From Anaerolineaceae bacterium UBA1415 (GTDB taxonomy: Bacteria; Chloroflexota; Anaerolineae; Anaerolineales; Anaerolineaceae): 64,000 nt of DNA. Position 1 is the first letter of the stretch; each line of letters opens with the position of its first letter. Made by a program: the position numbers and the translations under genes. The notes below the pieces were generated by a model. That model searched no databases and was not told where the DNA came from. It saw only the letters and a program-made list of their open reading frames with translations. Below, one piece after another: positions 33,255 to 56,310 of this stretch. The DNA is taken from assembly GCA_002305635.1 (NCBI GenBank), contig DBPR01000029.1, positions 53,281 to 117,280 of the forward strand. Direction: 5' to 3'.

Positions 33255-33255
33255 T

Positions 33256-33852: not shown

Positions 33853-34089
33853 TCTTGTCTTATATTAATATAAATCCTAAATATAATCCCAGGCGCAAAA
33901 CCATCGCTCTTATAATGTGTTTTACAAGGAAATCTCGTCATTGTTGACTGAGCTAATTTAGAAAATGCTTGGATTGTTTTTCAGGGCATTAAAATGGGAA
34001 GATATGGTTTTAAGAAACTGCCAGATGAGGTTTTAGATGCCTTATTTTTTCACGGTGGGTGAGGCATCCTCATTCTTATGTCTGTCCGC

Positions 34090-35610: not shown

Positions 35611-35903
35611 CCAGGCTTCAGGATAATCGAAAAAACGCGATATGTTAGAAAAAATTTCATAAGTTTCGGATACATTAATATTTGTTGTTTTTTCAAGCAT
35701 ACTTCTTGCTCTATGATCTGTATAAACTGGGGAATGATGTTCTGGGTAGCGACCTGATCTTCATTAATTATTCTGGGGTGGAGATCTGGTGTTTACGGAT
35801 GAAGACTTCGACCAGTCCCAGAACTATTAAAATCACTCTGGAATAGAATCAACCATGTTTAATTACTAAAATTGTACAATAATTTTTTGGTTTCACTTAT
35901 TAA

Positions 35904-36707
35904 TTACGGTCGTGGGTTAAACAAGGTAACAACAAACATTGTCCTTATGGCCGTGTCTTTCTCTTCCGGAGTGGCTGTATTTTGTATAAACCTAATCAGG
36001 GAATTATAATGAAATTCATCCAAAGTATCCGATAATAAGGCATCCATCGAGTCGTTGGGTAACACTTTCCTTACTTCATCTCCCCATAAAAATGAAACAT
36101 TCAATACTCTCTCGTCGGTTGGTGTCTCATAATTTGTATAAAAATACGAATCTTCCGGTGGATAGGTAAAAGATAAAGGGACTAACTCACCGTTTCTTTT
36201 ATCCATATAGACAAAAGTCTTGGTCAATATTTCTTCGTTTTGGAATATAAATTTATAGGAACTAATCACCGGCCACTCAGAAGATATAAACATTAATCTT
36301 CCTAGGTTATAACTTATGCTTGTATGTTCATCACTGATAGTCGGTCCGGTATAAGTTTTTAACTTCTCGTAAACTTGTTTTAAATATTCATCCTGAAAAA
36401 GGGTAAAAATTTCCGGGTCGTCGATGGGAGAGGGAGCCAGGACTACAGTGTCAAATTCCTCTTTGGTTTGGGGATCCTGGAAAATGTCTCCTTGAATTAA
36501 AGATTCTGTAGTGGGAATCAGAGTTTCAGTGGCAGTGGAGGTGGCTTGAACTACAGTTGAGGTGACTGACTCCTGGGTTGGGAGATCGGTCAAGGTTGCA
36601 ACCTCACTGAGGTCGGATTGGGAATTTATCGGCGTACAAGCCACAGTTACCCAGATAATAATTAGGACTGTAATCAAGTTTCTAACTACACAAGATTTTA
36701 AACTCAT
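35904..36707 (-). CDS. Hypothetical secreted/lipoprotein (AT-rich orphan)
   Basis: N-terminal hydrophobic segment with VACT, a Thr/Ser-rich linker, and no recognisable domain. Confidence 0.5.
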   Translation of the reverse strand: MSLKSCVVRNLITVLIIIWVTVACTPINSQSDLSEVATLTDLPTQESVTSTVVQATSTATETLIPTTESLIQGDIFQDPQTKEEFDTVVLAPSPIDDPEIFTLFQDEYLKQVYEKLKTYTGPTISDEHTSISYNLGRLMFISSEWPVISSYKFIFQNEEILTKTFVYMDKRNGELVPLSFTYPPEDSYFYTNYETPTDERVLNVSFLWGDEVRKVLPNDSMDALLSDTLDEFHYNSLIRFIQNTATPEEKDTAIRTMFVVTLFNPRP

Positions 36708-36963
36708 TTATCCTCTAAACTCTCTAATTCACGCCGTTCTGTATATGTGAATTATATTATTAAATGTGCATAAGAGAATTTACATGTTTATGATAAAACA
36801 ATAGAAAAACACCCTTTAGTCAAATGACTTTCTTCTTAATATGCAAAAAATAGGAGGAGTTAATTGCAACAATAAGGAAATAATTGAGGTTTTCAATTCC
36901 CACTTCAATTGGAACATCCTTAAATTTGCCGCAAAAGTTGACCTCAGGGCTGCCAGCTAAGGA

Positions 36964-37022
36964 GTAGGTCGAAACGAAGTACCCGTAAAGGTATTGAACC
37001 CTTCTTTTGGGTTCAATTCGAC
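36964..37022. repeat. GTAGGTCGA-headed hairpin element
   Basis: GTAGGTCGAAAC...GTATTGAACCC-ttctttt-GGGTTCAATTCGAC. Confidence 0.45.
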
Positions 37023-37177
37023 GTCAATGAATGGATCAATTCGCGCTGATTACTTCCAAGGATGTTTCATGAAAATCAAAGGAGATATGGGGGTCATCGG
37101 ACGCTCTGCGATCCGACCTGCAATGATACCAACGACTGATACGACTGTTATGATCACAGTTATGATCGCTGAAAAAG

Positions 37178-37206
37178 TTGACCTCCAGGCCACCAGCGTC
37201 TATAAT
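37178..37206 (+). promoter_or_regulatory. Near-consensus sigma-70-type promoter
   Basis: TTGACC (37178-37183), a 17-nt spacer, then TATAAT (37201-37206), ~125 nt upstream of the SWIM ORF. Confidence 0.55.
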
Positions 37207-37332
37207 ATAGACACTATGCAGGAGTTAGCCTGATACGCATGAACCGAAACTTTTCGGAATACTACAGATCAAAACACGCTGCCATTTTTCGACGCGTGTT
37301 TTTGTTTAATAACAGGAAAAGGAGCCAAAAAC

Positions 37333-37581
37333 ATGGATAGTGGATTCATCGGTAAGATCGAAAAAGCCAAACGCTATGCTGAAGAGCGTGACCGCATCCA
37401 GCTCACCAGCTTTGAAGCCAGTTTTGATGGGGAGAACAACACTCACACGGTAACTTATCGGGATGGTCAGTGGCAGTGCACCTGTAATTACTTTCAGGCC
37501 AAAGGCATTTGCGCCCATACCATGGGGATGGAAATGATCCTCGAAGGCATGGTCCAGCCTCTCGAAGACGCAACGATCTAA
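37333..37581 (+). CDS. Small SWIM zinc-finger protein
   Basis: CTCNYFQAKGICAH fits C-x-C-xn-C-x-H. The RBS AGGAAAAGGAG lies upstream. Confidence 0.6.
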   Translation: MDSGFIGKIEKAKRYAEERDRIQLTSFEASFDGENNTHTVTYRDGQWQCTCNYFQAKGICAHTMGMEMILEGMVQPLEDATI

Positions 37582-37687
37582 GCCATAAATCGTTCGGACA
37601 ATTCTTTTAATTTTTAAATAAACGCCGTTGGAGTTTCCCAGGCTCACTGTTTCTGGGCTTTTCTTCAGCCAGGATGAAACAGCGCTT

Positions 37688-37742
37688 GTTTAAGGGTAAA
37701 ATCAGGCCAGGAATTAGCTAAAAAATGACCGCAACCCTCGCC
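37688..37742 (+). repeat. Duplicated copy of the promoter-proximal/5' end of the downstream GT-C gene (12-codon remnant)
   Basis: GTTTAAGGGTAAAATCAGGCCAGGAATT..AAAAATGACCGCAACC..CGCC closely matches 38207-38262. The ATG at 37725 opens only MTATLAYLSFLY before a stop. Confidence 0.6.
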
Positions 37743-37913
37743 TACCTGAGTTTCTTATACTAGCGCCCTATTGCGCTGCCCGTTTTAATGCAGAGGATTT
37801 CTCTTTTTTTCTTTGATGGAAAACCCGTTTTTGGAAAACGTAGAAAACTCAGAAAGTATCAACTGTAGCATCAGAACCTTGCAATGAAATCGAAGGCTTT
37901 GACATGCATAGAC

Positions 37914-37966
37914 AGCGGACGGGGTCAATACCCTGCTTCGCGGGCACAGGTCCCCGTCCGTACAGG
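37914..37966. repeat. 53-nt GC hairpin element, left copy
   Basis: AGCGGACGGGG-27 nt-CCCCGTCCGTACAGG. It is the reverse complement of 39928-39980 at about 50 of 53 positions by eye. Confidence 0.6.
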
Positions 37967-38206
37967 TAGCTTACCTATAAACAGCTTGGTCTATACGGCA
38001 ACTTAATATCGTCAAGTACCAAATGTAAGGATGGGGCTTGTCCCCATCCGTAATTAAGCCAATCAGAACCTTGTAACAAAGATGTAAGTATTTGAAATAC
38101 ATATACAGCAGACCGGGACAGATGCTCGATTTTTTCTGTTTTAGTGGTCTAAATTTATCTATTTTCCTTAATGAAAACGCAGTTTTTTCAAAAGTGAGAA
38201 AATCAG

Positions 38207-46327: not shown

Positions 46328-46380
46328 ACCAACCGCCACCACCCTCTTCGCGCGTAAGTTGGATAGGACGGCCGTGGTAT

Positions 46381-46492
46381 AAACCCTTCTCACCCGCCCG
46401 TGGTACTTTCCCAGTATGGAAGGTCGGGTTGCGCTGCCTGCCCTTGGCTTATTTGCCAAGGGTCAACCCGACAAAATCTTAAGCCTTCTCAC
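46381..46492. repeat. Cluster of REP-like units
   Basis: AAACCCTTCTCACCCGCCCGTGGTACTTTCCCAG, then the AGGTCGGGTTG...CAACCCGAC long hairpin (46422-46472) with inner CCCTTGGC-ttattt-GCCAAGGG, then TAAGCCTTCTCACCTGCCCGG. Confidence 0.55.
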
Positions 46493-46840
46493 CTGCCCGG
46501 TAGGGTCGGTTTTTAAGCCTTCGCCCATGGGGAGAAGGTGCCCGCAGGGTGGATGAGGGGTAATCGAGAACCTGCCCGAAGGCCGGGTACTACCTAAAGC
46601 CTTCCCACCTGCCCGTGGTGCTTTCCCAGGGGGCGGGAGAAGGCCTGCCCTCTTTTAGAGAGGGTGCTCGGCAGGTCGGTCTTTAAGCCTTCGCCCATGG
46701 GGAGAAGGTGCCCGCAGGGCGGATGAGGGGTAATCGAGAACCTGCCCGAAGGCCGGGTACTACTAAAAGCCTTCCCACCTGCCCGTGGTGCTTTCCCAGG
46801 GGACTGGGAGAAGGCCTGCCCTCTTTGTAGAGAGGGTGCC
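46493..46840. repeat. Tandem direct repeat, two copies of ~170 bp
   Basis: TAAGCCTTCGCCCATGGGGAGAAGGTGCCCGCAGGG starts at 46514 and again at 46684. AAAGCCTTCCCACCTGCCCGTGGTGCTTTCCCAGG occurs at 46596 and 46766. Only a few substitutions and one 1-nt indel separate the copies. Confidence 0.8.
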
Positions 46841-47053
46841 CGAAGGCCGGACTGTTTACCCGATGTTACTAGGGTGAGGGGTGTTTCTTGCGCCCTGGAT
46901 TTCCAGGATGAAGGGAAACGAAACCATGTAAGATCAACCTTACACTCGCTTGTCAACCATGGCATTCTGCCCCTGACCCCACCCAATTTTTCATAAAAAC
47001 ATCCCCCATCCAAGAGTATAATTACCCACAACGCAATCCCCGTCAGGAGGACC

Positions 47054-50000
47054 ATGACCGCGCCGGAAATCATTCACAACCTCGTCACCAGCTTTCGCGA
47101 CCTGCGCGAACAATACACCTCTGTCCACTACAAAGAAACCCAACTGCGCAACGAATTTCTCAACCCCTTCTTCATCGCCCTCGGTTGGGATGTCTACAAC
47201 GAGCGCAACGTCGCCCTCCAATACCGCGACGTCATCCACGAAGACTCCCTCGAGATCGAAGGCAAAACCCGCGCGCCTGACTACGCCTTTTGCGTCGGCA
47301 GCTCCCGAAAATTCTTCGTCGAGGCAAAAAAGCCTTCTGCCCGCGTCAAAACCAACGGCGAAGCCGCCTATCAACTCCGCCGCTACGCCTGGAACACCAA
47401 ACTTCCCCTCTCCATCCTGACCGATTTCGAGCATTTCGCCGTCTACGACTGCCGCACTCGTCCCGACCCCAAAGACAGTGCCGCCGTCGGGCGCGTCAAG
47501 CTCTATAATTTTGAAGAATACCTCAGCCATTGGGACGAGATCGCCAGCATCTTCTCCCGGGAAGCGGTCTGGAAAGGGAAATTAGACGATTTCGCCGACG
47601 GCACCAAAGGCAAACGCTCCACCACCGAGGTGGACGCTGAATTCCTCAAGGATATCGAAGCCTGGCGCGATCTGCTGGCGCGCAATATCGCCCTGCGCAA
47701 CTTCCGTTCCAGCGAAGAGCTCGCCAACCTACCCCGTGCCGAACGCCAGCTCAACTATGCCGTACAGGCGACCATCGACCGCATCCTCTTTTTGCGCATC
47801 TGCGAAGACCGCGAAATTGAGCCGCCCGATCAGCTCCTTCAAAATGCGCAGCAGCCTGATGTCTACGCCAACCTGCTCACCCTCTTTAAGCACGCCGATC
47901 AGAAATATAATTCCGGGCTCTTCCATTTTTCGGAAGAAAAAAGCCAGACCAGCGCGCCCGATACCTTTACCCCCACCTTGCAGATTGACGATAAGGTACT
48001 GCGTCAGATCATCGAAAGCCTTTATGGCCCCAGCTCCTATATCTTCAAAGAGATCCCGGTCGAGATCCTTGGGCAAATATACGAGCAATTCCTGGGCAAG
48101 GTCATCCGCCTGACGCCCAAAGGCATCGCCAAGGTCGAAGAAAAGCCCGAAGTCCGCAAAGCCGGCGGCGTCTACTACACCCCCAGCTACATCGTCGATT
48201 ACATCGTCCACAACACCCTCAGCCCTCTCCTTAATCCAAACCAGCCTTCCCAAGATGGTAAAAAAGTGGGCTTCGAAAACCAACCACCATCTAGGACGAG
48301 AGCTGTGGAAGCGCCAAACTCTACCCCTTCCAGGGAAAGGGAATTAAAGGGGTTGGGTCTTGAAAAACATCCTTCGAAAACTACGCTGAAGAGTGGGTCT
48401 TTCGATCTGTCATCGCGAGACCCGCAGGGTCGTGGCGATCTGCCTTTCCAATCTTCTTCAGATCAACAAAAAGTACAGGAACCAATGGGCTCAAACGACC
48501 AAACCTTGACCAGGTCGAAGCCTGCGGAATCGTCCAGCCAAACCCCCTCCAGGGAGGGGGGCAGGGGGGTGGGTCTTGAAAACAAACCGACCACACAAAC
48601 CATCTCCAGCGAAGCGACGGAAGCCGTAGGTCGGGTTGCGCTTGTCAACCCGACATCCACATCCCTAACCCCCGACCAGGCCCTCAAACTCCGTGTCGTC
48701 GATCCCGCCTGCGGCTCCGGCTCCTTCCTCCTGGGTGCCTACCAATACCTCCTCGACTGGCACCTCAACTACTACCTCACCCACGACCCCGAAAGCCACA
48801 TCCGCGGCAAAAACCCACCCATCGTCGCCACCGAAGGCGGTGAATATCGCCTCACCACCGAAGAAAAGAAGCGCATCCTCACCGCCAGCATCTACGGCGT
48901 CGATATCGACGCCCAGGCGGTCGAGGTCACCAAGCTCTCCCTCCTGCTCAAACTGCTCGAGGGCGAAACCGGTCAGCTCACCCTTGGTTTCGACCGCGTC
49001 CTGCCCGACCTCGGCAACAACATCCGCTGCGGCAACTCCCTCATCGGCTGGGACTATTTTGCCAGCCAGCTTTTGCCCGACGAAGAAGAGATCATCCGCG
49101 TCAACCCCTTCGACTGGCAGCGCTCCTTCCCCGAAGTCTTCGCCCAGGGCGGCTTCGACGCCGTCATCGGCAACCCGCCCTACGTCCGCCAGGAAGATCT
49201 CGGCGCCGACAAACGCTATTACCAGAGCCTCTACGAGGTCTACACAGGCACTGCCGACCTCTACAGCTATTTCATCGAGCGCGGCATCAAACTGCTGGCA
49301 CCCAACGGCAATTTTAGCTACATCGTCGCCAACAAGTGGATGCGCGCCAATTACGGTCGTCCCCTGCGTGAATGGCTCAAAAAGCAGTGTATCGATGAGA
49401 TCACTGACTTTGGCGACCTGCGTGTTTTCACCAGCGCCACCACCTACCCATGCATCCTGCGCGTCAGCAACCGCGAACCGCACAACCGACCCTGGGTGAC
49501 CACCGTCAAAACGCTTGACTTCCCCTCACTGCAGGAATACGTTGATCAAAACGGCTCAGTTGCCGACCAAACCCGCTTTGAGGATGGCGGTTGGTCGCTG
49601 GCAGGCATCGAGACCCAAAGACTGATGGAAAAGATCCGCCAAAACTCCATCCCACTGGGTGAATATGTTAAGGGCAAAATTTATCGGGGAGCAGTTACTG
49701 GTCTAAATGAAGTCTTCATCATTGACCAGTCCACCCGAGATCATCTCATTGCTGAAGATCCTAAAAGCGCTGAACTGATCAAGTCGTGTTTGTTGGGGAA
49801 AGACATTAAACGCTACGGCATTGATTACCAAAATCTTTACATGATATTCACCAGACGCGGCACCAATATTAAAGATTATCCTGCGATTCACGACTACTTA
49901 CTCAAATTTAAGGATAAATTAATGCCACGACCAAAAAAATGGGCTGGCAAAGATTGGAAAGGGCGGAAACCTGGTCCCTACCAATGGTTTGAAATTCAAG

Positions 50001-50446
50001 ATTCAATTGCCTATTACGAAGAATTTGAAAAGCCAAAAATTATTTGGGGTAATCTGGCACAGAAACCTAAATTTACCATGGATACAGATGGATACTATAT
50101 CAATGCTCCAGGGGTTATTATTCCAGTCGAAGATTACTATCTTCTGGGAATAATGAATTCTTCATTGTTTTACACATTTATTAGTGAAGTGGCAGCTGGT
50201 AGACGAGGAGGATTCTTCGAGTACAAACCCATCTATGTTTCCCAAATGCCGATTCATATCATAGATTGGGATAATATTGCTGAAGTTGAGATGGTAAACC
50301 AACTTCGTCAACTGGTAATTAGAAGGCTTGAATTAGGAAAACGCAATGCTCAAACCCCAGGGCAAGTAATGATGTTAGAAAACGAAATTGAAATTATCGA
50401 GACACATATAGACTCTGTCGTTATGACACTTTACAATCTCAAATAA
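47054..50446 (+). CDS. Type IIG restriction-modification fusion: PD-(D/E)xK nuclease, gamma-class N6-adenine methyltransferase and TaqI_C/Eco57I-like recognition region
   Basis: APDYAF...FFVEAKKP (D...ExK), YYTPSYIVDYIV, DPACGSGSFLL (motif I), GNPPYV (motif IV), YRGAVTGLNEVFII and a C-terminal ...IDSVVMTLYNL. The RBS CAGGAGG lies 4 nt upstream of the ATG. Confidence 0.85.
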   Translation: MTAPEIIHNLVTSFRDLREQYTSVHYKETQLRNEFLNPFFIALGWDVYNERNVALQYRDVIHEDSLEIEGKTRAPDYAFCVGSSRKFFVEAKKPSARVKTNGEAAYQLRRYAWNTKLPLSILTDFEHFAVYDCRTRPDPKDSAAVGRVKLYNFEEYLSHWDEIASIFSREAVWKGKLDDFADGTKGKRSTTEVDAEFLKDIEAWRDLLARNIALRNFRSSEELANLPRAERQLNYAVQATIDRILFLRICEDREIEPPDQLLQNAQQPDVYANLLTLFKHADQKYNSGLFHFSEEKSQTSAPDTFTPTLQIDDKVLRQIIESLYGPSSYIFKEIPVEILGQIYEQFLGKVIRLTPKGIAKVEEKPEVRKAGGVYYTPSYIVDYIVHNTLSPLLNPNQPSQDGKKVGFENQPPSRTRAVEAPNSTPSRERELKGLGLEKHPSKTTLKSGSFDLSSRDPQGRGDLPFQSSSDQQKVQEPMGSNDQTLTRSKPAESSSQTPSREGGRGVGLENKPTTQTISSEATEAVGRVALVNPTSTSLTPDQALKLRVVDPACGSGSFLLGAYQYLLDWHLNYYLTHDPESHIRGKNPPIVATEGGEYRLTTEEKKRILTASIYGVDIDAQAVEVTKLSLLLKLLEGETGQLTLGFDRVLPDLGNNIRCGNSLIGWDYFASQLLPDEEEIIRVNPFDWQRSFPEVFAQGGFDAVIGNPPYVRQEDLGADKRYYQSLYEVYTGTADLYSYFIERGIKLLAPNGNFSYIVANKWMRANYGRPLREWLKKQCIDEITDFGDLRVFTSATTYPCILRVSNREPHNRPWVTTVKTLDFPSLQEYVDQNGSVADQTRFEDGGWSLAGIETQRLMEKIRQNSIPLGEYVKGKIYRGAVTGLNEVFIIDQSTRDHLIAEDPKSAELIKSCLLGKDIKRYGIDYQNLYMIFTRRGTNIKDYPAIHDYLLKFKDKLMPRPKKWAGKDWKGRKPGPYQWFEIQDSIAYYEEFEKPKIIWGNLAQKPKFTMDTDGYYINAPGVIIPVEDYYLLGIMNSSLFYTFISEVAAGRRGGFFEYKPIYVSQMPIHIIDWDNIAEVEMVNQLRQLVIRRLELGKRNAQTPGQVMMLENEIEIIETHIDSVVMTLYNLK
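48240..48660 (+). repeat. In-frame block of intergenic-type repeat elements inside the RM gene
   Basis: GTAGGTCGGGTTGcgcttgtCAACCCGAC at 48626-48654. Two ~45-nt units lie at 48324-48369 and 48543-48586, each ending GGGTCTTGAAAA. More TGGGYCTT-type copies lie at ~48265 and ~48393. The block translates as a low-complexity S/T/P/G/Q-rich stretch. Confidence 0.7.
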
Positions 50447-50464
50447 GACATACTTAGGAGTACG

Positions 50465-53400
50465 ATGGTTCAAATTGGAAAAATCGATTTCCCAGAAACG
50501 TTATTAAAAAGCCTCGAGAATAATGAACTCGTCGTTTTTGCTGGTGCAGGTGTTTCAATGGGACCTCCTTCAAATCTACCGAATTTTAATGGATTGGCTC
50601 AGGATATAGGTAAGAGTGTAGGTCATGAATTTAATGAAAAGAAAGAAGCTGCAGACTTGTTTTTGGGAAGGCTTGAAGATCAGGGAATAGATGTAAAAGA
50701 ATTTGCAAAGAAAGAATTAAATAAAGCGATGAGCTTTAACCCATTACATTCAGCCATTATTTCCCTTTATGATAAGTCACAAAATCTAAGGATTGTCACG
50801 ACAAATTTTGATGATCTTTTCGAACAAGCATTTCTTTCAAAACCTGAAAAAAAAGTAAACACATATTGTTCTCCAGTATTGCCTTTAGGGCATGATTTTG
50901 AAGGTCTTGTGCATCTCCATGGTAGTGTAACAAATACTAAGAGCATGATTCTAACCGATCGAGATTTCGGTAAGGCTTATCTAACAGATGGTTGGGCATT
51001 GCGATTCTTGATACCCTTATTTCAAAAATTTTCAGTTTTATTCATTGGCTATAGCTATAACGATGTTGTTATGAAGTATCTGGCACGAGCGTTACCTCCT
51101 GAATTGACAGAAAAAAGATATATCTTAAGTACTGAAAAAAGAGACGACCATTGGCGGCGATTAAGGCTGACCCCAATTTACTATTCAGGAAGAAACAAAC
51201 ATTCTGCACTAATCTCTTCATTATCAGAGATGGCGGATAGGCAGAATAGAACTTTACTAGATTGGAAATCTAGAATTACTGATTTATGCTCAAAGGGTTT
51301 GCCGAAAGAAAAAGCAAAACTTGATGAACTTGAACAGATATTTCTAGATACTAATAGGACAAAGTTGTTTATTCAGATAGCCAGAGGATTTAGTTGGGTT
51401 CCTTGGTTAATTGAAAAAAAATTTCTTGATCCATTCACTAAACCGAATCTTGATGGATGGGCTAGATGGTTTGCTTCAATATTCATTGAGAACCAGGAAA
51501 AAATAATCTCTTTATTTATTAATAGACAGCATATGGATAGACTGTTTTGGTCATCATTAATTTATGAGGTTAATGACCTTGATTTAGAAAAATGTCGACA
51601 GATTGATTTTTCAAGGATGATTTCTTTTTTGCTCAGAACAAAGCCGATTCCCTCGAATTTGTCCCTTTATTACATAATCGCACAAAAATGCTATGAATTT
51701 GGTGATTTTGAATCATTGTTAGATGTTTTTGAAACATATGTCAGTGAATACGAAGTCTTAATCACAAAATCACTTTGGAGGGAAAGTGATACATTTGAAG
51801 TGGTAGCTGATGAACACGGAAATGAAGTGGTATATATGTTTTATCAATTTATTGAGCCTAATTTATCTTTTGCACCAGAGAGATTGTTGAATCTAGCAAT
51901 GCGAACCTTGAGAAAAATGAACAGGCTCGAAATGATATGGTCTGATTCAATTTCACAACTCAACTCTTCAAGTATGAGATTTCACAGTCTCCTCAAAGAT
52001 GTTGATAGAAATGAATATGGCACAGATTTCATACAAGTTGCTATCATTTCTGCGAGAAAAGCTCTTCTAGAAATAATGTCAAGAGATTCCGTTTTATGGC
52101 GGTTTTATACTGGTCAAGCTATACGAGACAAATGTAATCTAATTGCAAGGATTGGTTTAGATGCTTTAATTAACTCAGACTTAGTCGATAGTTCTTATAT
52201 TATTTCCGAGTTTCTTAAGATTCAACATCCTTTAGCTTGGGATATGCGACCAGAAGTATACGAATTACTTTTCACAAATTTTAAAAGTAGTAATGATGAA
52301 TTAAAAGTTTTGGTTTTAGAAAAAATAAATAAATCGATTAATGAAATGGAATGGAATTCTGATTTTAAAACAAAGCAATTAGTTAGCTGGTGTAATTTCT
52401 TCTATGAATTAGATCCCAACAACAAAATTCTAAGGATGAAAAAAGATTTGCTACAAGCAAAGTATCCTGAGGTTAAACCAAAAATAATTGGAAAAAGAAT
52501 AATTGAAGTAAGTGGAATTAAAGACCCAGACCCTTCATTTTGGTCACCAGATGAATTGATAAATATGACGACAGATGCAGAATTCGAAAAGATTCTAAAT
52601 AAAATAAAAACATTCCAGTTGTCGACAGACATTGGCTCCTCCTATATTGCCATACAACGAGCAGTTGAGAAGGATCAGGGTTGGGCGTTTTTATTTGCTG
52701 ATTATCTCGTCAAAATAGAATGTTTTAGTAATACTGTTTGGAGCCGTATATTTTTGGGGCTTCAAAAAGTTCACTTGAACGAACAAGAGAAAGAATTCAT
52801 AATAAATCTCAGTAAAATCAAGGAGATCATTCATTCTTTTCAATATTATTATTTAGAATTGCTAGAAAATCAACTAAATACTTCAGAAGACCTGTTCAAC
52901 AATACTGATATTAATGAAGTAATTACTCTCGTTGAAAAAATGTTATCTTCAAAAAATCTTGAAGTCATGGTTAGTGAAAAGTCCAGTATTCTAATGAAAT
53001 CTTGTAACAGTAATATTGGAATGATTTCATTAATTCTCATCAAATGTGTTGATATTCTGAATAAAAGAAATATCTGCAGAGGGTGCCTTGATAAAGGTTT
53101 GGAGATAATATCCGAATTAGCTAATTCATCAGAATTTGGGGATTTTGCGAGACCAATGATCTTCACCCAATTTACCTTTTTTATGACTTCTTTTCAAAAT
53201 TTTGCCATCCGAGAACTTGTCCCATTCCTGACAAACAGAAAAAATGATTATTATATTCAAGCTTGGAATGGTTTCCTAAATGGGGATAATAATCCAGCAA
53301 GCTACATCGAACATTTTAAACCCATAATGATTAAAGCTGCTCAAAGAGTTGAGCACTTGGAAGAAAGCGACCGACAATTATTCTTACAACTGTGTGCTCA

Positions 53401-53905
53401 TGTTGCAGTAAATGAGAGAAATCCAATAACCTCAATTGTTTTTCCTGTTTTTAAAGTGGTACCGTCAAAATACTTGCACTATTTTTCTAGAACCATTGGG
53501 CAAGTAATAAATACCGCAGATTCTGATTTAATCGATTCTTTATGGAATAATTTTCTTTCTGACTTTCTCGAAAAGAGAATCAATAATGCCCCTGTGGAAA
53601 CTACAGACAAAGAAACCAAAGAGATCTCAAAGTGGCTTATTAAATTAGGGAAATACTATCCTGAAGCGGTAGATTGTTTCATAAAATTCAAACCTGCAGA
53701 TTTGAGTAAATCCAACCTAATTTATAGATTAGAAAATTCTGAAATAACTGATTTATACCCATTGGCGACAAAAAAACTATTGTCATACTTAAATAAGTGT
53801 AAAATTGATTCTTGGAATAAGCAATACATACAAAAAGTTGTGGAACGTCTGAAAGTCCATCTGGATAAAACCGATATAGAAATGTTAGAAATTGAAATGA
53901 CATAA
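50465..53905 (+). CDS. SIR2-family (SIR2_2-like) NAD-utilising domain fused to a ~900-aa uncharacterised helical region; DSR-like defence candidate
   Basis: VVFAGAGVSMGPPSNLP, VTTNFDDLFE, LVHLHGS and LFIGYSYNDVVM in the first ~230 aa. I recognise no motif in the rest. The RBS TAGGAG precedes the start, which is 18 nt after the RM stop. The gene is strongly AT-rich. Confidence 0.8.
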   Translation: MVQIGKIDFPETLLKSLENNELVVFAGAGVSMGPPSNLPNFNGLAQDIGKSVGHEFNEKKEAADLFLGRLEDQGIDVKEFAKKELNKAMSFNPLHSAIISLYDKSQNLRIVTTNFDDLFEQAFLSKPEKKVNTYCSPVLPLGHDFEGLVHLHGSVTNTKSMILTDRDFGKAYLTDGWALRFLIPLFQKFSVLFIGYSYNDVVMKYLARALPPELTEKRYILSTEKRDDHWRRLRLTPIYYSGRNKHSALISSLSEMADRQNRTLLDWKSRITDLCSKGLPKEKAKLDELEQIFLDTNRTKLFIQIARGFSWVPWLIEKKFLDPFTKPNLDGWARWFASIFIENQEKIISLFINRQHMDRLFWSSLIYEVNDLDLEKCRQIDFSRMISFLLRTKPIPSNLSLYYIIAQKCYEFGDFESLLDVFETYVSEYEVLITKSLWRESDTFEVVADEHGNEVVYMFYQFIEPNLSFAPERLLNLAMRTLRKMNRLEMIWSDSISQLNSSSMRFHSLLKDVDRNEYGTDFIQVAIISARKALLEIMSRDSVLWRFYTGQAIRDKCNLIARIGLDALINSDLVDSSYIISEFLKIQHPLAWDMRPEVYELLFTNFKSSNDELKVLVLEKINKSINEMEWNSDFKTKQLVSWCNFFYELDPNNKILRMKKDLLQAKYPEVKPKIIGKRIIEVSGIKDPDPSFWSPDELINMTTDAEFEKILNKIKTFQLSTDIGSSYIAIQRAVEKDQGWAFLFADYLVKIECFSNTVWSRIFLGLQKVHLNEQEKEFIINLSKIKEIIHSFQYYYLELLENQLNTSEDLFNNTDINEVITLVEKMLSSKNLEVMVSEKSSILMKSCNSNIGMISLILIKCVDILNKRNICRGCLDKGLEIISELANSSEFGDFARPMIFTQFTFFMTSFQNFAIRELVPFLTNRKNDYYIQAWNGFLNGDNNPASYIEHFKPIMIKAAQRVEHLEESDRQLFLQLCAHVAVNERNPITSIVFPVFKVVPSKYLHYFSRTIGQVINTADSDLIDSLWNNFLSDFLEKRINNAPVETTDKETKEISKWLIKLGKYYPEAVDCFIKFKPADLSKSNLIYRLENSEITDLYPLATKKLLSYLNKCKIDSWNKQYIQKVVERLKVHLDKTDIEMLEIEMT

Positions 53906-54026
53906 CTCATCGAGTAGGTAAGGTTCCGCTCCCGTTCTTCGTTCTTATGCTGAGTGCTATGTAAAAAAACAAAACCTAGATGTTATACCACAAGCAGGTT
54001 GTGCGATCAGGGGTACGCAATTTTGA

Positions 54027-54050
54027 CCGCACAACCGCACAACCGCACAA
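54027..54050. repeat. Three tandem CCGCACAA octamers
   Basis: CCGCACAA is repeated three times. The last copy plus CCT is the reverse complement of AGGTTGTGCG at 53996-54005. Confidence 0.6.
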
Positions 54051-54146
54051 CCTCACCCTTGCACAATCCAAGGGCAGGCAACCTCAGCTTTTACCCTCAT
54101 ACCTATACAAAATACAGGGTAAAAGGGTAAAACCTCATCGCCTCCG

Positions 54147-54155
54147 TGCTATAAT
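54147..54155 (+). promoter_or_regulatory. Extended -10 promoter candidate for the ChlI-like gene
   Basis: TGCTATAAT lies 24 nt upstream of the ATG, with AAGGAAG as RBS. Confidence 0.4.
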
Positions 54156-54178
54156 TTGCCTTTGCAAAGGAAGCGACT

Positions 54179-55309
54179 ATGAATCATAAAGTAATTTTTC
54201 CCTTCACCGCCATTGTTGGGCAGGAGCGCATGATGCGCGCCCTCATCCTCAACGCGGTTGACCCGCGCATCGGCGGCGTCCTCATCCGCGGCGAACGCGG
54301 CACTGCCAAATCCACCGCCGCCCGCGCCCTGGCAGCCCTCCTGCCCGCCATCGAGGTCGTCACAGACTGCCGTTTCAACTGCGACCCCGCCAAACCGACC
54401 ACCTGGTGTACCGAATGTCAGGAGCGTTTTGTCGGCGGCGAAGACCCTTTGCCCCACGAAAGCAAAACCACCCCCTTCGTCAACCTGCCCGTTTCCGCCA
54501 CCGAAGACCGTGTCGTCGGCACCCTCGATATCGAACGCGCCATCCAGAAAGGCGAGCGCCATTTTGAGCCCGGCGTGCTGGCAAGCGCCAACCGCGGCTT
54601 GCTCTACATCGACGAGGTCAACCTGCTCGACGATCACGTCGTCGATATCCTGCTCGACTCCGCCGCTATGGGCACCAACGTCGTCGAACGCGAAGGCATC
54701 TCCTTCAGCCACCCCGCCCGCTTCATCCTCGTTGGCACGATGAACCCCGAAGAGGGCGACCTGCGCCCGCAGCTGCTCGACCGATTCGCCTTTTCCGTTG
54801 AAATTCACGGCATCCTGGATAAAGCCCAGCGCGTCGAGATCATGCGCCGCAACATCGCCTTTGAAAGCGACCCCGAAGCCTTCCGCCAGGCATTTTTGCC
54901 CCAGGAGCTTGAGCTTTCCGACAGAATCGCCGCCGCCCAAAAACTGGTCGAAGACGTTTCCTACACCCAGCGCGACCTGCTGATCATCGCCGAGCTGACC
55001 TCCTCGATGGATGTCGATGGGCACCGCTCCGACCTGGTCATCCTCAAAGCCGCCCGCGCCCAGGCAGCCTTTGAGGGGCGCGACCGCATCACCCCGCACG
55101 ATATCGCCATGGCTGCCGAACTGGCGCTGCCCCACCGCGTCAAGGCTGGTCCCTTCCGCAAGAGCGAGAATGGCATCGAGCACCTCAACGCCAAACTGGC
55201 AGACCTGAAGATGCAGACCACGCTCTCTCCTTCTGAGGACGACCGCGACCAGGAAGTTGAGCAAAACCAGGACGACGATAAAAAAAAAGTGACCCCGTCC
55301 CTGACTTAG
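54179..55309 (+). CDS. ChlI/BchI-family AAA+ ATPase (chelatase I-subunit-like)
   Basis: FPFTAIVGQERMMRALILNAVDPRIGGVLIRGERGTAKST and LLYIDEVNLLDDH (Walker B). It has a Cys-rich insert CRFNCDP...CTEC and an acidic C-terminal end. Confidence 0.85.
   Translation: MNHKVIFPFTAIVGQERMMRALILNAVDPRIGGVLIRGERGTAKSTAARALAALLPAIEVVTDCRFNCDPAKPTTWCTECQERFVGGEDPLPHESKTTPFVNLPVSATEDRVVGTLDIERAIQKGERHFEPGVLASANRGLLYIDEVNLLDDHVVDILLDSAAMGTNVVEREGISFSHPARFILVGTMNPEEGDLRPQLLDRFAFSVEIHGILDKAQRVEIMRRNIAFESDPEAFRQAFLPQELELSDRIAAAQKLVEDVSYTQRDLLIIAELTSSMDVDGHRSDLVILKAARAQAAFEGRDRITPHDIAMAAELALPHRVKAGPFRKSENGIEHLNAKLADLKMQTTLSPSEDDRDQEVEQNQDDDKKKVTPSLT
55280..55288 (+). other. A9 homopolymer linking the ChlI-like frame to the VWA frame
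   Basis: GAT AAA AAA AAA GTG in the ATPase frame. The -1 frame has TAA at 55279-55281, then stays open from 55282 straight into the VWA ORF. Confidence 0.9.
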
Positions 55310-55347
55310 ACAACAAAGACAACGACTTTGATCCTGAGATCCCGATC

Positions 55348-56310
55348 GTGGGCGAGTCGCAGCAGGACGTATTCGTCCAGCTCAACCCGAACTGGTGGGA
55401 CGGCGGCAAGGTGGTCAAGCCAGGCGAGACCTTTGAGCCGCGCCAGCTCGACACCCCGCTCGACGAAATGGTCCGCAAACAGGGCGGCAGACGTTCCCAG
55501 ACGATGTCCAGGACCAAACGCGGGCGCTACATCATGGCGCGCCCAGCCCCGCGCGACCGCAGCGACGTGGCTTTTGACGCCACACTGCGCGCCGCCGCGC
55601 CCTATCAGCGCCGCCGCAAAGCCCTGCGCGAGGAGCGCAAGGTCGCTTTTGCCATCCGTCCCGACGATTTTCAGAAAAAAGTGCGCGTGCGCAAGACCGC
55701 CAACCTGATCCTCTTTTTGGTTGATGGCTCCTGGTCGATGGCGGTCGCCGAGCGCATGCAGGCGACCAAGGCGGCGATCCTGTCGCTGCTGACCGACGCC
55801 TACCAGCGTCGCGATCGGGTCGGCCTGGTCGTCTTCCAGAAAGACCGCGCCACCCTGGTCCTGGCGCCGACCAATTCGGTCCTGCTGGCGCAGCGCGCGC
55901 TGGCGAGCATCCCGGTCGGCGGCAAGACGCCTCTCTCGGCTGGGCTGGAAATGGCATGGGAGGTCATCGCGCGTGAGAAGATCCTGCACCCGGATGTGCA
56001 GCCCCTGCTGATCGTCTTGACCGACGGCGCCGGCAACGTACCCCTCGTGCCCGGCAGACCTGTGGCGGAGGAGATCAAAGAGCTGGCGGGCATGTTCGCC
56101 AACGAGAAGATCCACAGCGTTGTGATCAACATGGAGCAGAAGGTCTTCGACAGTGGTCTGGCGCAGGGTCTGGCGGAAGATATGGGCGCGGTTTGTTATA
56201 CCGTTGATGATCTGAGGGGCGACACGCTTTACAAGACTGTCCAGAAAGAGATCCTCGCCCCCTCCGTCCCAACCTACCGCGAATTGGGCTACAGCTCGGC
56301 CGGGTTGTAG
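55348..56310 (+). CDS. von Willebrand factor A domain protein (ChlD C-terminal-like)
   Basis: MIDAS motif LVDGSWSM, ...VLTDGAGN. The GTG start has no obvious SD, and the frame is open 22 codons further upstream to 55282. Confidence 0.8.
   Translation: MGESQQDVFVQLNPNWWDGGKVVKPGETFEPRQLDTPLDEMVRKQGGRRSQTMSRTKRGRYIMARPAPRDRSDVAFDATLRAAAPYQRRRKALREERKVAFAIRPDDFQKKVRVRKTANLILFLVDGSWSMAVAERMQATKAAILSLLTDAYQRRDRVGLVVFQKDRATLVLAPTNSVLLAQRALASIPVGGKTPLSAGLEMAWEVIAREKILHPDVQPLLIVLTDGAGNVPLVPGRPVAEEIKELAGMFANEKIHSVVINMEQKVFDSGLAQGLAEDMGAVCYTVDDLRGDTLYKTVQKEILAPSVPTYRELGYSSAGL

What the first reader, a model, noticed from the sequence alone, without database searches (positions are those of the whole stretch)
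47054..53905. Type IIG restriction-modification fusion tightly coupled to a 1146-aa SIR2 protein: candidate undescribed two-gene defence cassette
The first ORF has an apparently intact PD-(D/E)xK nuclease motif, gamma-class m6A methyltransferase motifs I and IV, and an Eco57I/TaqI_C-like recognition region. The second ORF starts 18 nt later behind its own TAGGAG. Its SIR2 core keeps the conserved Asn (TTNFD) and His (HLHG), and it continues for ~900 aa with no motif I recognise. SIR2 effectors are established NAD-depleting abortive-infection modules (DSR1/DSR2, ThsA, SIR2-HerA, SIR2-pAgo). I do not know of a fixed pairing with a Type IIG enzyme as a named system. I see no BREX, DISARM or Thoeris partner genes here. 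The pair sits in the most repeat-cluttered, compositionally mosaic part of the window, which fits a defence island. The pair could act as layered defence, with restriction first and NAD depletion as backup, or the RM protein could serve as sensor for the SIR2 effector.
Basis: partly seen in the sequence, partly recalled or inferred. Interest (0 to 1): 0.85.

Follow-up and report, generated by a model that had tools for sequence, protein, structure and literature searches.

The report
Restriction enzyme beside swappable defence gene
Both genes are real anti-phage genes, but they are a Type IIG restriction enzyme followed by one interchangeable cargo (a distant relative of the known sirtuin Dsr1) in a defence-gene hotspot, not a new fixed two-gene system.

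Summary
ORF1 (47054-50446) is an intact Type IIG restriction-modification enzyme. ORF2 (50465-53905) starts 18 nt later and has an intact SIR2 NADase core.

ORF2 is not an unknown protein. It is a divergent, full-length relative of the single-gene defence sirtuin Dsr1. Both the SIR2 domain and the C-terminal helical sensor are homologous to Dsr1, and the predicted fold is closest to DSR2.

The "fixed cassette" idea is not supported:
- In related genomes the same chromosomal locus keeps the Type IIG gene and the downstream MoxR/VWA genes. The slot between them holds SIR2, or a CBASS-like cyclase+SAVED pair, or PDC-M46, or an SMC-like ATPase set.
- Recombination breakpoints lie inside the 3' end of the Type IIG gene.
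- One allele has the same specificity domain (98% nt) but CBASS-like cargo.
- None of 80 other loci of this Type IIG family has a SIR2 neighbour.

Among 80 distant SIR2-DUF4020 loci, 19 have a Type IIG or PglX gene nearby, usually directly adjacent. A rough control gave 0 of 80. The Type IIG partners are unrelated to each other, so there is no partner specificity.

Verdict: a new member of known kinds in a defence hotspot. An optional functional link remains untested.

The parts
46360..46900 (.). Array of ~170-nt direct repeats with REP-like palindromes in the intergenic region upstream of ORF1. It marks the left edge of the locus.
   Evidence: 134-nt unit x2 at 96% identity, with 21-22-nt sub-repeats x4-5. 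The palindrome arms GTCGGGTTG/CAACCCGAC (46423-46472) recur inside the ORF1 insert. Related copies occur upstream of the orthologous gene in L091 and L095.
47054..50446 (+). ORF1: Type IIG restriction-modification enzyme, 1130 aa. It is the conserved left anchor of the variable slot.
   Evidence: PADLOC PDLC03604 E 4e-202; Pfam Eco57I, TaqI_C, MmeI_Mtase, N6_Mtase, HSDR_N. More than 8000 homologues, typically 990-1000 aa. dN/dS is 0.02 over the last 590 aa and 0.34 over aa 1-395, against L001.
47234..47464 (+). N-terminal PD-(D/E)xK nuclease domain of ORF1 (D76, E90, K92).
   Evidence: Pfam HSDR_N aa 61-137. Motifs APDYAF 74-79 and VEAKK 89-93. Both are identical in all five orthologues.
48236..48673 (+). 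In-frame, low-complexity insert of ~146 aa in the ORF1 linker between the helical region and methyltransferase motif I. It is built from short repeats and palindromes, and its length varies between alleles.
   Evidence: The five orthologues carry inserts of very different length at this point, all in frame. The family norm is ~990-1000 aa. The palindrome 48630-48654 is shared with the upstream repeat array and with an intergenic site in L001.
48701..49183 (+). Gamma-class N6-adenine methyltransferase core of ORF1, from motif I (DPACGSGSF) to motif IV (GNPPY).
   Evidence: PDB sequence matches to adenine methyltransferases including TaqI, BseCI and PglX/BrxX.
49787..50254 (+). TaqI_C-type target-recognition domain of ORF1 at 37-41% GC. 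It is exchangeable: identical or nearly so in L001 and L094, and different in L095 and L091.
   Evidence: Pfam TaqI_C aa 912-1067; GC profile. blastn breakpoints are 49189 (L091), 49779 (L095) and 50257 (L094). Protein alignment.
50255..50464 (+). Last 63 codons of ORF1 plus the 18-nt spacer with TAGGAG. This tail travels with the cargo: it is 100% identical in the SIR2 allele L001 and diverged in the CBASS-like allele L094.
50465..53905 (+). ORF2: divergent Dsr1-family defence sirtuin (SIR2-DUF4020 family), 1146 aa. It is the cargo of the slot in this genome.
   Evidence: PADLOC Dsr1 E 8e-54; NCBIfam Dsr1 215 bits. Full-length alignment (97-100% coverage, 25-28% identity, E ~1e-118) to SIR2_2+DUF4020 proteins. 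AlphaFold2 model pLDDT 82.5. Best PDB fold matches are DSR2.
50486..51295 (+). SIR2 NADase effector domain of ORF2, with catalytic N114 and H152.
   Evidence: 95% aa identity to the L001 allele over aa 1-150 and 91% over aa 151-340.
51485..53902 (+). All-helical repeat (alpha-solenoid) sensor region of ORF2. It is a highly diverged allele relative to L001.
   Evidence: AlphaFold2 secondary structure. aa ~815-1130 match Dsr1 model positions 931-1243, E 4e-15. Against L001: 67-77% nt identity, no indels, 63% aa identity, dS 0.87, dN/dS 0.26, while both flanks are 96-100% identical.
53906..54178 (.). Right junction of the variable segment. Homology among all alleles resumes at ~53,960-54,030, upstream of the MoxR-like gene.
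54179..56310 (+). MoxR-like AAA ATPase (54179-55309) and VWA protein (55348-56310). They are the conserved right anchor, not defence partners.
   Evidence: Pfam Mg_chelatase/AAA_5/AAA_lid_2 and VWA. No meaningful PADLOC hit. 95-96% nt identity in all four related loci.

Best explanation
The region is a small defence hotspot between housekeeping genes. It is anchored on the left by a resident Type IIG restriction-modification gene and on the right by conserved MoxR/VWA genes.

ORF1 is a single-polypeptide nuclease, N6-adenine methyltransferase and specificity enzyme. It methylates its own genome and cuts unmodified incoming DNA.

The position directly after its stop codon is a cargo slot. In this genome the slot holds a stand-alone Dsr1-like sirtuin. 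In sister genomes it holds a CBASS-like cyclase+SAVED pair, PDC-M46 or an SMC-type ATPase module instead.

Cargo is exchanged by homologous recombination. The left crossover falls inside the 3' part of the Type IIG gene: after motif IV, at the start of the specificity domain, or 63 codons before the stop. The right crossover falls just upstream of the MoxR gene. As a result, specificity domain and cargo are reshuffled, sometimes together and sometimes separately.

ORF2 most likely acts on its own, as Dsr1 does. Its C-terminal helical-repeat sensor binds a phage structural protein; for E. coli Dsr1 this is the major capsid protein. Binding switches on the N-terminal SIR2 NADase, which lowers NAD+ and stops phage replication.

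The two genes therefore give layered but mechanistically independent protection, and are probably co-transcribed from the restriction gene's promoter.

Shown here: gene identities, intactness, purifying selection, slot variability, breakpoints and sensor-allele replacement.

Inferred, not shown: enzymatic activities, the trigger, co-transcription and independence of function.
For: Identity of ORF1.

Identity of ORF2:
- Dsr1 is the best family in PADLOC and NCBIfam.
- full-length homology to more than 1,800 SIR2_2+DUF4020 proteins.
- all 29 family members sampled hit the Dsr1 model.
- the sensor region is colinear with the C-terminal part of the Dsr1 model.
- SIR2 plus alpha-solenoid, with DSR2 the closest solved fold.

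Slot variability:
- L001: SIR2.
- L094: SAVED effector + cyclase + a 519-aa protein.
- L091-93: PDC-M46A/B.
- L095: SMC_N/AAA_23 ATPase set.
- All lie between the same Type IIG orthologue and the same MoxR/VWA genes.
- All start 6-59 nt after the Type IIG stop codon, and all are low-GC.

Breakpoints.

The same specificity domain occurs with different cargo. L094 is 98.1% identical over 48657-50257.

Generality of the slot: 80 further loci of this Type IIG family have highly diverse downstream genes. These hit 114 PADLOC families, including Pycsar cyclase, LeoA/BC, Type IV restriction, CapP, RmrA and PDC systems. None is SIR2.

Functionality: ORF1 3' half dN/dS 0.02; ORF2 0.29 overall and 0.26 in the sensor; equal length with no indels.

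Single-gene sufficiency and NAD+ depletion by DSR1: Garb et al. preprint 10.1101/2021.12.14.472415.

Major capsid protein as the EcDsr1 trigger and the TPR-repeat sensor: PMC12803255.

No partner genes, tRNA, integrase or Rfam element in the neighbourhood.
Against: - ORF2 scores far below the curated Dsr1 cutoff (215 against 1400 bits). Pfam DUF4020 is not detected in ORF2 itself, and its closest non-orthologous relatives are only 28% identical. Transferring the trigger and mechanism from Dsr1 is therefore an extrapolation.
- SIR2-DUF4020 genes are unexpectedly often directly adjacent to Type IIG, PglX or Hma genes in unrelated phyla. A purely passive hotspot model does not fully explain this. 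The Type IIG partners belong to unrelated subfamilies, which could not provide DNA homology for recombination.
- Only five alleles of the locus were seen, all from metagenome assemblies of unidentified organisms.
- No expression or activity data exist.
Confidence: 0.72

Rival explanations
1. Optional functional partnership. Dsr1-like SIR2-DUF4020 proteins are preferentially recruited next to Type IIG, BREX or Hma methyltransferase-nuclease systems because they cooperate with them. The sirtuin might act as a backup that fires when restriction fails or is inhibited by an anti-restriction protein, as PrrC does within the EcoprrI locus. Alternatively, restriction might buy time for, or generate, the sirtuin's trigger. 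The sirtuin works with any such enzyme and can also work alone.
For: - 19 of 80 distant SIR2-DUF4020 loci carry a Type IIG or PglX gene within 8 kb. The same query set finds 0 of 80 in anchor-masked loci centred on the ORF1 family.
- 13 of the 19 lie within 700 nt, against 4.9 expected under uniform placement.
- 17 of 19 are co-oriented and 15 of 19 are upstream.
- Among the large (750 aa or more) neighbours of the SIR2 genes, 17 are Type IIG, 2 PglX and 3 HmaC, against only 2 Type I HsdR.
- In L052 the SIR2 gene sits between BrxC and PglX, overlapping the PglX gene by 4 nt.
- The cases are scattered over the SIR2 tree.
- SIR2 genes 70-87% identical sit beside Type IIG genes only 22-24% identical. 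Recombination through the restriction gene cannot explain this.
- In the window the cargo tail shows that the SIR2 gene's previous location was also behind a Type IIG gene of this family.
Against: - About 75% of SIR2-DUF4020 loci have no such neighbour.
- The same slot in sister genomes holds other systems.
- 0 of 80 ORF1-family loci have SIR2.
- DSR1 works alone in heterologous hosts, and EcDsr1 is triggered by a capsid protein, not by anti-restriction proteins or DNA damage.
- The control set is imperfect: different environments, query proteins taken from the test set, and an anchor that is itself a Type IIG gene.
- Many SIR2 loci come from sponge-symbiont and Chloroflexota MAGs. From my own knowledge, untested here, these are rich in restriction-modification genes.
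Confidence: 0.2
2. Obligate, previously undescribed two-gene system. The Type IIG protein would be the sensor or an essential partner, the SIR2 protein its effector, and the two genes would be inherited as a fixed cassette.
For: - 18-nt spacing with no terminator-like site between the genes.
- The pair is conserved with identical spacing in L001.
- The L048 and L081 pairs may be co-inherited (Type IIG 77% aa identity, SIR2 55%).
Against: - L001 is the orthologous locus, so it is a single evolutionary instance.
- L094 has the same Type IIG gene and the same specificity domain but CBASS-like cargo.
- Four alternative cargos occupy the slot.
- 0 of 80 in the reciprocal test.
- No co-divergence between SIR2 and Type IIG partners.
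- The sensor half of ORF2 was replaced by a diverged allele while ORF1 stayed 97-100% identical.
- ORF2 has its own full sensor domain homologous to that of single-gene Dsr1.
Confidence: 0.04
3. One or both genes are decaying remnants or have a non-defence role. ORF1 could be inactivated by its 146-aa insert and act at most as an orphan methyltransferase. ORF2 could be a protein deacylase.
For: - ORF1 carries a large repeat-derived insert that is absent from most family members.
- ORF2 is a deep-branching outlier of its family.
Against: - The insert is in frame in all five alleles and lies in a linker.
- All catalytic motifs are intact.
- dN/dS is 0.02-0.34 for ORF1 and 0.19-0.53 for ORF2 segments, with no indels over 3.4 kb despite dS 0.87 in the sensor region.
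- ORF2 belongs to the SIR2_2 (defence-type) family, not to the deacylase sirtuins: Pfam SIR2 gives 17.6 bits, below its cutoff of 24.
Confidence: 0.04

Closest known systems
Dsr1 (defence-associated sirtuin 1; single-gene system named by Gao et al. 2020, as cited; NAD+ depletion shown by Garb et al.; major capsid protein trigger for E. coli Dsr1 in PMC12803255)
   Same: - One polypeptide of ~1150-1260 aa.
- N-terminal SIR2_2 domain with the catalytic Asn and His.
- Long C-terminal helical-repeat sensor. Both parts are homologous and colinear with the Dsr1 model.
- Usually stand-alone in variable neighbourhoods.
   Different: - Only 215 bits against the 1400-bit equivalog cutoff.
- It belongs to the very large 'DUF4020 domain-containing protein' branch, and within that branch it is an outlier (28% identity to the nearest non-orthologue).
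- The trigger is unknown.
- The middle part of the sensor (aa ~280-815) gives no match to the Dsr1 model.
DSR2 (Bacillus subtilis; cryo-EM structures 8WY8, 8Z18 and others)
   Same: SIR2 domain followed by an alpha-solenoid sensor. It is the best structural match to the ORF2 model (Foldseek E 1e-8, full-length alignments).
   Different: - 10-13% sequence identity and low TM-scores (0.2).
- The NCBIfam Dsr2 model is not hit by ORF2.
- The sensor is not demonstrably homologous.
- DSR2 senses tail tube protein.
Type IIG restriction-modification enzymes of the Eco57I/MmeI kind (PADLOC REase_MTase_IIG PDLC03604)
   Same: PD-(D/E)xK nuclease, gamma-class N6A methyltransferase and TaqI_C specificity domain in one chain, with near full-length profile coverage.
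   Different: - ~146-aa repeat-derived in-frame linker insert.
- The specificity domain and the last 63 codons take part in cargo exchange.
Core-gene-flanked defence hotspots, and cassette-like variation at restriction loci such as the E. coli immigration control region (comparison from my own knowledge)
   Same: Conserved flanks with alternative defence cargos in related genomes. Low-GC cargo. No integrase, so exchange is by homologous recombination.
   Different: The left recombination arm is the restriction gene itself. The crossover points lie inside its coding sequence, so specificity and cargo can be swapped in one event.
PrrC anticodon nuclease embedded in the EcoprrI Type I restriction locus, and accessory genes embedded in BREX loci (comparison from my own knowledge)
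   Same: An abortive-infection-type effector encoded inside or directly beside a methylation-based restriction system. L052 shows a SIR2-DUF4020 gene between brxC and pglX.
   Different: There is no evidence here of physical or regulatory coupling. The sirtuin has its own sensor domain, and the partner enzymes are interchangeable.

Membership tests
Type IIG restriction-modification enzyme | Nuclease, methyltransferase and target recognition in a single polypeptide | tested here: met
   HSDR_N 61-137, Eco57I 612-792 and TaqI_C 912-1067 in one 1130-aa ORF. PADLOC REase_MTase_IIG E 4e-202.
Type IIG restriction-modification enzyme | Intact PD-(D/E)xK catalytic residues and gamma-class motifs I and IV (NPPY) | tested here: met
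   D76/E90/K92, DPACGSGSF 550-558 and GNPPY 706-710. All are conserved in five orthologues.
Type IIG restriction-modification enzyme | Site-specific m6A methylation and cleavage of unmodified DNA | not testable with these tools
   Needs methylome data or biochemistry. dN/dS of 0.02 in the methyltransferase/specificity half argues for function.
Dsr1 (defence-associated sirtuin 1) | N-terminal SIR2 domain with catalytic Asn and His | tested here: met
   SIR2_2 E 5e-21. N114 and H152 are invariant in the family alignment. Dsr1 models align to aa 8-277.
Dsr1 (defence-associated sirtuin 1) | C-terminal helical-repeat sensor homologous to that of Dsr1 | tested here: met
   ORF2 aa ~815-1130 match model positions 931-1243, E 4e-15. 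Family members align over positions 415-1251, E 1e-30 to 1e-45. The AlphaFold2 model is all-helical from aa ~245. The middle of the sensor is not matched in ORF2 itself, and the L001 allele gives no hit.
Dsr1 (defence-associated sirtuin 1) | Score above the curated equivalog cutoff of NCBIfam NF041818 | tested here: not met
   215 bits against 1400. The best of the 29 family members reaches E 3e-94. NCBI names such proteins 'DUF4020 domain-containing protein'. ORF2 is therefore a Dsr1-like relative, not an equivalog.
Dsr1 (defence-associated sirtuin 1) | Pfam DUF4020 (PF13212) at the C-terminus, as in most of the SIR2-DUF4020 family | tested here: inconclusive
   Not reported for ORF2 at E 0.01 or below. 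It is present in most full-length homologues that align over 97-100% of ORF2.
Dsr1 (defence-associated sirtuin 1) | Acts as a single gene; phage-triggered NAD+ depletion | not testable with these tools
   Context is compatible. Most of the 80 family loci have unrelated, variable neighbours. Published for DSR1 itself.
DSR2 | Sequence membership (NCBIfam Dsr2) | tested here: not met
   ORF2 gives no Dsr2 hit, and only 1 of 29 family members gives a weak one. Only fold-level resemblance.
Thoeris (ThsA/ThsB) | SIR2-SLOG ThsA plus an adjacent TIR-domain ThsB | tested here: not met
   ThsA models match only the SIR2 part (aa 7-207). The C-terminal region is an alpha-solenoid, not SLOG. No ThsB is present in the neighbourhood.
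SIR2-HerA / SIR2-pAgo | Adjacent HerA helicase or short Argonaute/APAZ partner | tested here: not met
   The only neighbours are ORF1, housekeeping genes and MoxR/VWA. None gives a meaningful PADLOC hit.
BREX / DISARM | PglX or DrmMI methyltransferase together with BrxC/PglZ/BrxL or DrmA/B/C/D | tested here: not met
   ORF1 matches the PglX and DrmMI models only through the shared methyltransferase core, far below cutoff (97 against 500 bits). No partner genes are present.
Fixed Type IIG + SIR2 two-gene system (as proposed) | Conserved synteny of the two genes beyond the orthologous locus, with co-divergence | tested here: not met
   - Alternative cargos in orthologous loci.
- 0 of 80 ORF1-family loci with SIR2.
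- 61 of 80 SIR2-family loci without a Type IIG/PglX gene.
- Incongruent partner identities.

The most novel reading that the evidence does not exclude
Dsr1-like SIR2-DUF4020 sirtuins may have a real, non-obligate affinity for methyltransferase-nuclease defence systems: Type IIG enzymes of at least four unrelated subfamilies, BREX PglX and Hma. They would be repeatedly recruited directly beside or inside these loci because the sirtuin backs up or guards the restriction system, for example by firing when restriction is evaded or inhibited. In the window's lineage, the restriction gene's own 3' end would serve as the recombination handle that moves such backup modules between genomes.
Probability: 0.2. 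Interest if true: 0.65.

Novelty: new member of a known kind. Interest (0 to 1): 0.38.

Why it matters
In itself the locus is ordinary: a Type IIG restriction enzyme plus a Dsr1-type NAD+-depleting sirtuin in a defence hotspot. It is useful in three ways.

1. It is a clean natural example of how defence repertoires are reshuffled. The crossovers lie inside a restriction gene, so one recombination event can change the enzyme's DNA specificity, the downstream defence module, or both.

2. It shows allele replacement confined to the sensor half of a defence sirtuin while the effector half stays nearly identical. This is what an arms race over phage-protein recognition would produce.

3. It raises a testable statistical lead: Dsr1-like genes sit next to Type IIG/BREX-type enzymes far more often than a rough control predicts. 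If that survives a proper genome-wide test, it would point to cooperation between restriction and NAD+-depletion defences.

Tried and rejected
- Literature. 'DUF4020' returns no paper. Searches combining Type IIG, PglX or BREX with SIR2 or DSR1 found no description of this pairing. This covers only the searchable library.
- Organism identification failed. The closest named Type IIG relatives are Chloroflexota/Anaerolineae MAGs, and related contigs come from fermentation, bioreactor and digester metagenomes. This is only a hint.
- Promoter and terminator scans were uninformative. Counts were about the same as in shuffled sequence. A weak promoter-like site at 50409-50437 inside the ORF1 tail is not significant.
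- I first thought the low-GC block meant that the ORF1 C-terminus and ORF2 arrived together as one foreign block. I rejected this as a general statement. The same low-GC specificity domain occurs with CBASS-like cargo in L094. In addition, the specificity domain has lower GC than the core in most of the 80 loci of this Type IIG family. Only the last 63 codons co-vary with the cargo.
- I considered DISARM or Hma membership for ORF1 because of the DrmMI and mad2 hits. I rejected it: the hits cover only the methyltransferase core and no partner genes are present.
- On short contigs (L002-L010), gene callers split ORF1 into an antisense 272-aa ORF and a 273-aa 'TaqI_C' gene. This is an artefact of truncated contigs and the GC shift, not a real alternative gene structure.

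Full report
**1. Observation**

ORF1 (47054-50446, 1130 aa):
- It carries Pfam HSDR_N, N6_Mtase/MmeI_Mtase, Eco57I and TaqI_C.
- It matches a PADLOC Type IIG profile at E 4e-202.
- The PD...ExK residues (D76, E90, K92), motif I (DPACGSGSF 550-558) and motif IV (GNPPY 706-710) are present. They are identical in five orthologues.

ORF2 (50465-53905, 1146 aa):
- It begins 18 nt after the ORF1 stop codon, behind TAGGAG.
- It has a SIR2_2 domain with TTNFD 112-116 and HLHG 150-153.
- N114, H150 and H152 are invariant in the family alignment.

The compositional mosaic is real, but its left edge is inside ORF1. GC is 53-63% up to ~49,650, then 27-38% from ~49,700 to ~53,950, then above 60%.

**2. What ORF2 is**

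- In PADLOC and NCBIfam the best family is Dsr1 (E 8e-54; 215 bits). ThsA and other SIR2 models match only the SIR2 core.
- A search of 5.8 billion proteins gave more than 1,800 hits. The top 120 are 1,146-1,227 aa. Apart from the self-match and the orthologue, they align over 96-100% of ORF2 at 25-28% identity (E ~1e-118). Most carry SIR2_2 plus DUF4020. Those named by NCBI are called 'DUF4020 domain-containing protein'.
- All 29 members sampled hit the Dsr1 model.
- With the SIR2 domain removed, ORF2 aa ~815-1130 still match Dsr1 model positions 931-1243 (E 4e-15). The C-terminal regions of family members align colinearly over positions 415-1251.
- An AlphaFold2 model (mean pLDDT 82.5) shows an alpha/beta SIR2 fold followed by ~900 aa of helical repeats.
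- Its best PDB matches are full-length DSR2 cryo-EM structures (E 1e-8). HEAT/importin-like solenoids follow, and ThsA and KomC match the SIR2 part.

ORF2 is therefore a divergent Dsr1-family sirtuin, well below the equivalog cutoff.

Published work on DSR1:
- It protects as a single gene and lowers NAD+ during infection (Garb et al. preprint).
- E. coli Dsr1 is triggered by a phage major capsid protein through a TPR-repeat sensor shared with Avs7 (PMC12803255).

**3. The pair in related genomes**

The only close relative of ORF2 (P0002, 72% aa) lies in L001. This is the orthologous locus of a related genome. It has the same Type IIG gene (88% aa), the same 18-nt spacer and the same downstream MoxR-like, VWA, PMT_2 and aminotransferase genes. 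It counts as one evolutionary instance.

The closest relatives of ORF1 reveal three more versions of the same locus. All keep the Type IIG gene and the MoxR/VWA genes. Between them sit:

| Locus | Cargo after the Type IIG gene |
|---|---|
| L094 | SAVED-domain effector + oligonucleotide cyclase + a 519-aa protein (CBASS-like) |
| L091-93 | PADLOC candidate system PDC-M46A/B (LmuB-like ATPase) |
| L095 | two small genes + an SMC_N/AAA_23 ATPase |

Every cargo starts 6-59 nt after the Type IIG stop codon and is low-GC.

Homology to the window ends inside ORF1 at these points:
- 49,189 in L091, just after motif IV.
- 49,779 in L095, at the start of the specificity domain.
- 50,257 in L094, at the end of the TaqI_C domain, 63 codons before the stop.

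It resumes in all alleles at ~53,960-54,030.

L094 shares the window's low-GC specificity domain at 98.1% nt identity but carries different cargo. Its last 63 codons are homologous but diverged. Specificity domain and cargo are thus separable. Each cargo brings with it the tail of a Type IIG gene of this family, so its previous location was also behind such a gene.

The flanking genes in the window give no meaningful PADLOC hit. There is no tRNA, integrase or Rfam element nearby. Exchange by homologous recombination is therefore the likely mechanism.

**4. Mosaic inside ORF2**

The window and L001 compare as follows:

| Region | nt identity |
|---|---|
| 48,662-50,911 (ORF1 3' half, spacer, first ~150 codons of ORF2) | 95-100% |
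| 51,512-53,911 (the sensor) | 67-77%, no indels |
| MoxR gene | 97-99% |

Substitution rates support this:
- Sensor: dS 0.87 with dN/dS 0.26.
- ORF1 3' half: dS 0.06 with dN/dS 0.02.
- MoxR: dS 0.065.

The sensor half has therefore been replaced by an old, functional, diverged allele on a nearly identical effector. Both genes are under purifying selection.

**5. Is the pairing general?**

From the Type IIG side:
- 80 further loci of the ORF1 family from metagenomes (42-81% identity) contain no SIR2-DUF4020 gene.
- Their downstream genes are very diverse and hit 114 PADLOC families. Examples are Pycsar cyclase, LeoA/BC, Type IV restriction, CapP, RmrA, mad3 and several PDC systems.
- In most of them, GC drops across the specificity domain and downstream region.

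The 3' flank of this Type IIG family is thus a general defence-cargo position.

From the SIR2 side, I examined 80 distant loci from GTDB genomes:
- Most have unrelated, variable neighbours.
- 19 contain a Type IIG or PglX gene within 8 kb.
- These genes belong to several unrelated subfamilies (PDLC03596/03601, 03613/DrmMI-like, 03628 with an SNF2 helicase, 03610/03631).
- They come from Cyanobacteria, Latescibacterota, Dehalococcoidia, Lentisphaerae, Gemmatimonadota and others.
- In L052 the SIR2 gene lies between brxC and pglX. In L059 it follows a BREX operon. In L022 and L027 it abuts an Hma ATPase, and L041 also has one nearby.
- Among large neighbours there are 17 Type IIG genes against 2 Type I HsdR genes.
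- 13 of the 19 are within 700 nt, against 4.9 expected under uniform placement in the same flank.
- The same query set finds 0 of 80 in the anchor-masked ORF1-family loci.
- The cases are scattered in the SIR2 tree.
- Partner identities are incongruent. For L017 and L021, SIR2 is 87% identical and Type IIG 24%. For L017 and L040, the figures are 75% and 22%.

The families are therefore adjacent more often than my rough control predicts, but without partner specificity or co-evolution. About three quarters of family members lack such a neighbour.

**6. Interpretation**

The best-supported reading is two autonomous defence genes of known types in a variable slot anchored by the Type IIG gene.
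- ORF1 restricts unmodified DNA.
- ORF2 senses a phage protein through its solenoid and depletes NAD+.

Protection is layered, but the mechanisms are independent.

The residual lead is the recurrent direct adjacency of Dsr1-like genes to Type IIG, BREX and Hma systems. Recombination through the restriction gene cannot explain it, because the partner enzymes share no DNA homology. It could reflect selection for cooperation. It could also reflect a high density of restriction-modification genes in the sampled lineages, many of which are sponge-symbiont and Chloroflexota MAGs. My control cannot separate these possibilities.

**7. Limits**

- The organism is unidentified.
- All related loci are metagenome assemblies.
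- ORFs in fetched loci were called with a simple longest-ORF procedure.
- The background control is imperfect.
- No activity, expression or methylome data are available.
- No paper describing the pairing was found, but only the open-access library could be searched.

Noticed in passing
window 48236-48673 (ORF1 aa ~395-540): In-frame low-complexity insert of ~146 aa in the Type IIG linker. It is made of short direct repeats and small palindromes. Its length differs in all five orthologues, yet it is always in frame. Most family members (~990-1000 aa) lack it. It looks like REP/MITE-like DNA tolerated in a disordered linker.
   Followed up: partly
window 46360-46900; also L091 9411-9828 and L095 189-259: Array of ~170-nt direct repeats (134-nt core x2 at 96% identity, several 21-22-nt sub-repeats) in the intergenic region upstream of ORF1. 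Its palindrome arms GTCGGGTTG/CAACCCGAC recur in the ORF1 insert (48630-48654). The 30-nt element around that insert palindrome (48626-48655) also occurs at an intergenic site between the VWA and PMT_2 genes in L001 (16201-16232). Function unknown.
   Followed up: partly
window 51512-53911 vs L001 11050-13450: The sensor half of the sirtuin is 67-77% nt identical between two loci whose flanks are 96-100% identical. There are no indels, dS is 0.87 and dN/dS is 0.26. This is allele replacement confined to the sensor.
   Followed up: yes
window 48660-56300 vs L001: dS is ~0.06 for the ORF1 3' half and for MoxR. It is 0.19 for VWA, 0.21 for the ORF1 5' part and 0.53 for PMT_2. A tract spanning the hotspot (apart from the sensor region) was apparently shared recently between lineages that are otherwise ~14% diverged. 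The ORF1 5' part exists as two haplotypes: window, L095 and L091 against L001 and L094.
   Followed up: partly
L052 4042-15115; L059 130-11561; L022 781-7183; L027 1306-8554; L041 543-18730: SIR2-DUF4020 genes embedded in or abutting other methylation-based systems. In L052 the gene lies between brxC and pglX and overlaps pglX by 4 nt. In L059 it lies directly after a PglX/PglZ/BrxL-type operon. In L022 and L027 it is next to the HmaC ATPase. In L041 it follows an SNF2 helicase + Type IIG pair, with an HmaC-like gene downstream.
   Followed up: partly
L096-L175 (ORF1-family loci): In most loci of this Type IIG family, GC falls from the methyltransferase core to the specificity domain and stays low in the downstream genes (for example 0.58, 0.41, 0.36 in L096). 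The specificity domain and 3' flank appear to behave as a horizontally exchanged unit across the family.
   Followed up: partly
window ~33000-38000: A second low-GC stretch (39-45% GC in a ~52% GC window) with few long ORFs (34793-35497 and 35904-36707, minus strand). It is possibly another acquired segment.
   Followed up: no
L002-L010 (short Logan contigs); window 48665-49483 minus strand: On truncated contigs, automatic gene calling replaced the 5' part of the Type IIG gene by an antisense 272-aa ORF. It also started a 273-aa 'TaqI_C' gene at the GC shift. This annotation artefact could make the specificity domain look like a separate gene.
   Followed up: yes
L091 15836-16075 and L094 17520-17759 (minus strand): A 79-aa DUF2188 gene on the opposite strand sits at the right end of two different cargos (PDC-M46 and CBASS-like). 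It is absent from the SIR2 alleles. It may be part of the slot's right border in some alleles.
   Followed up: no
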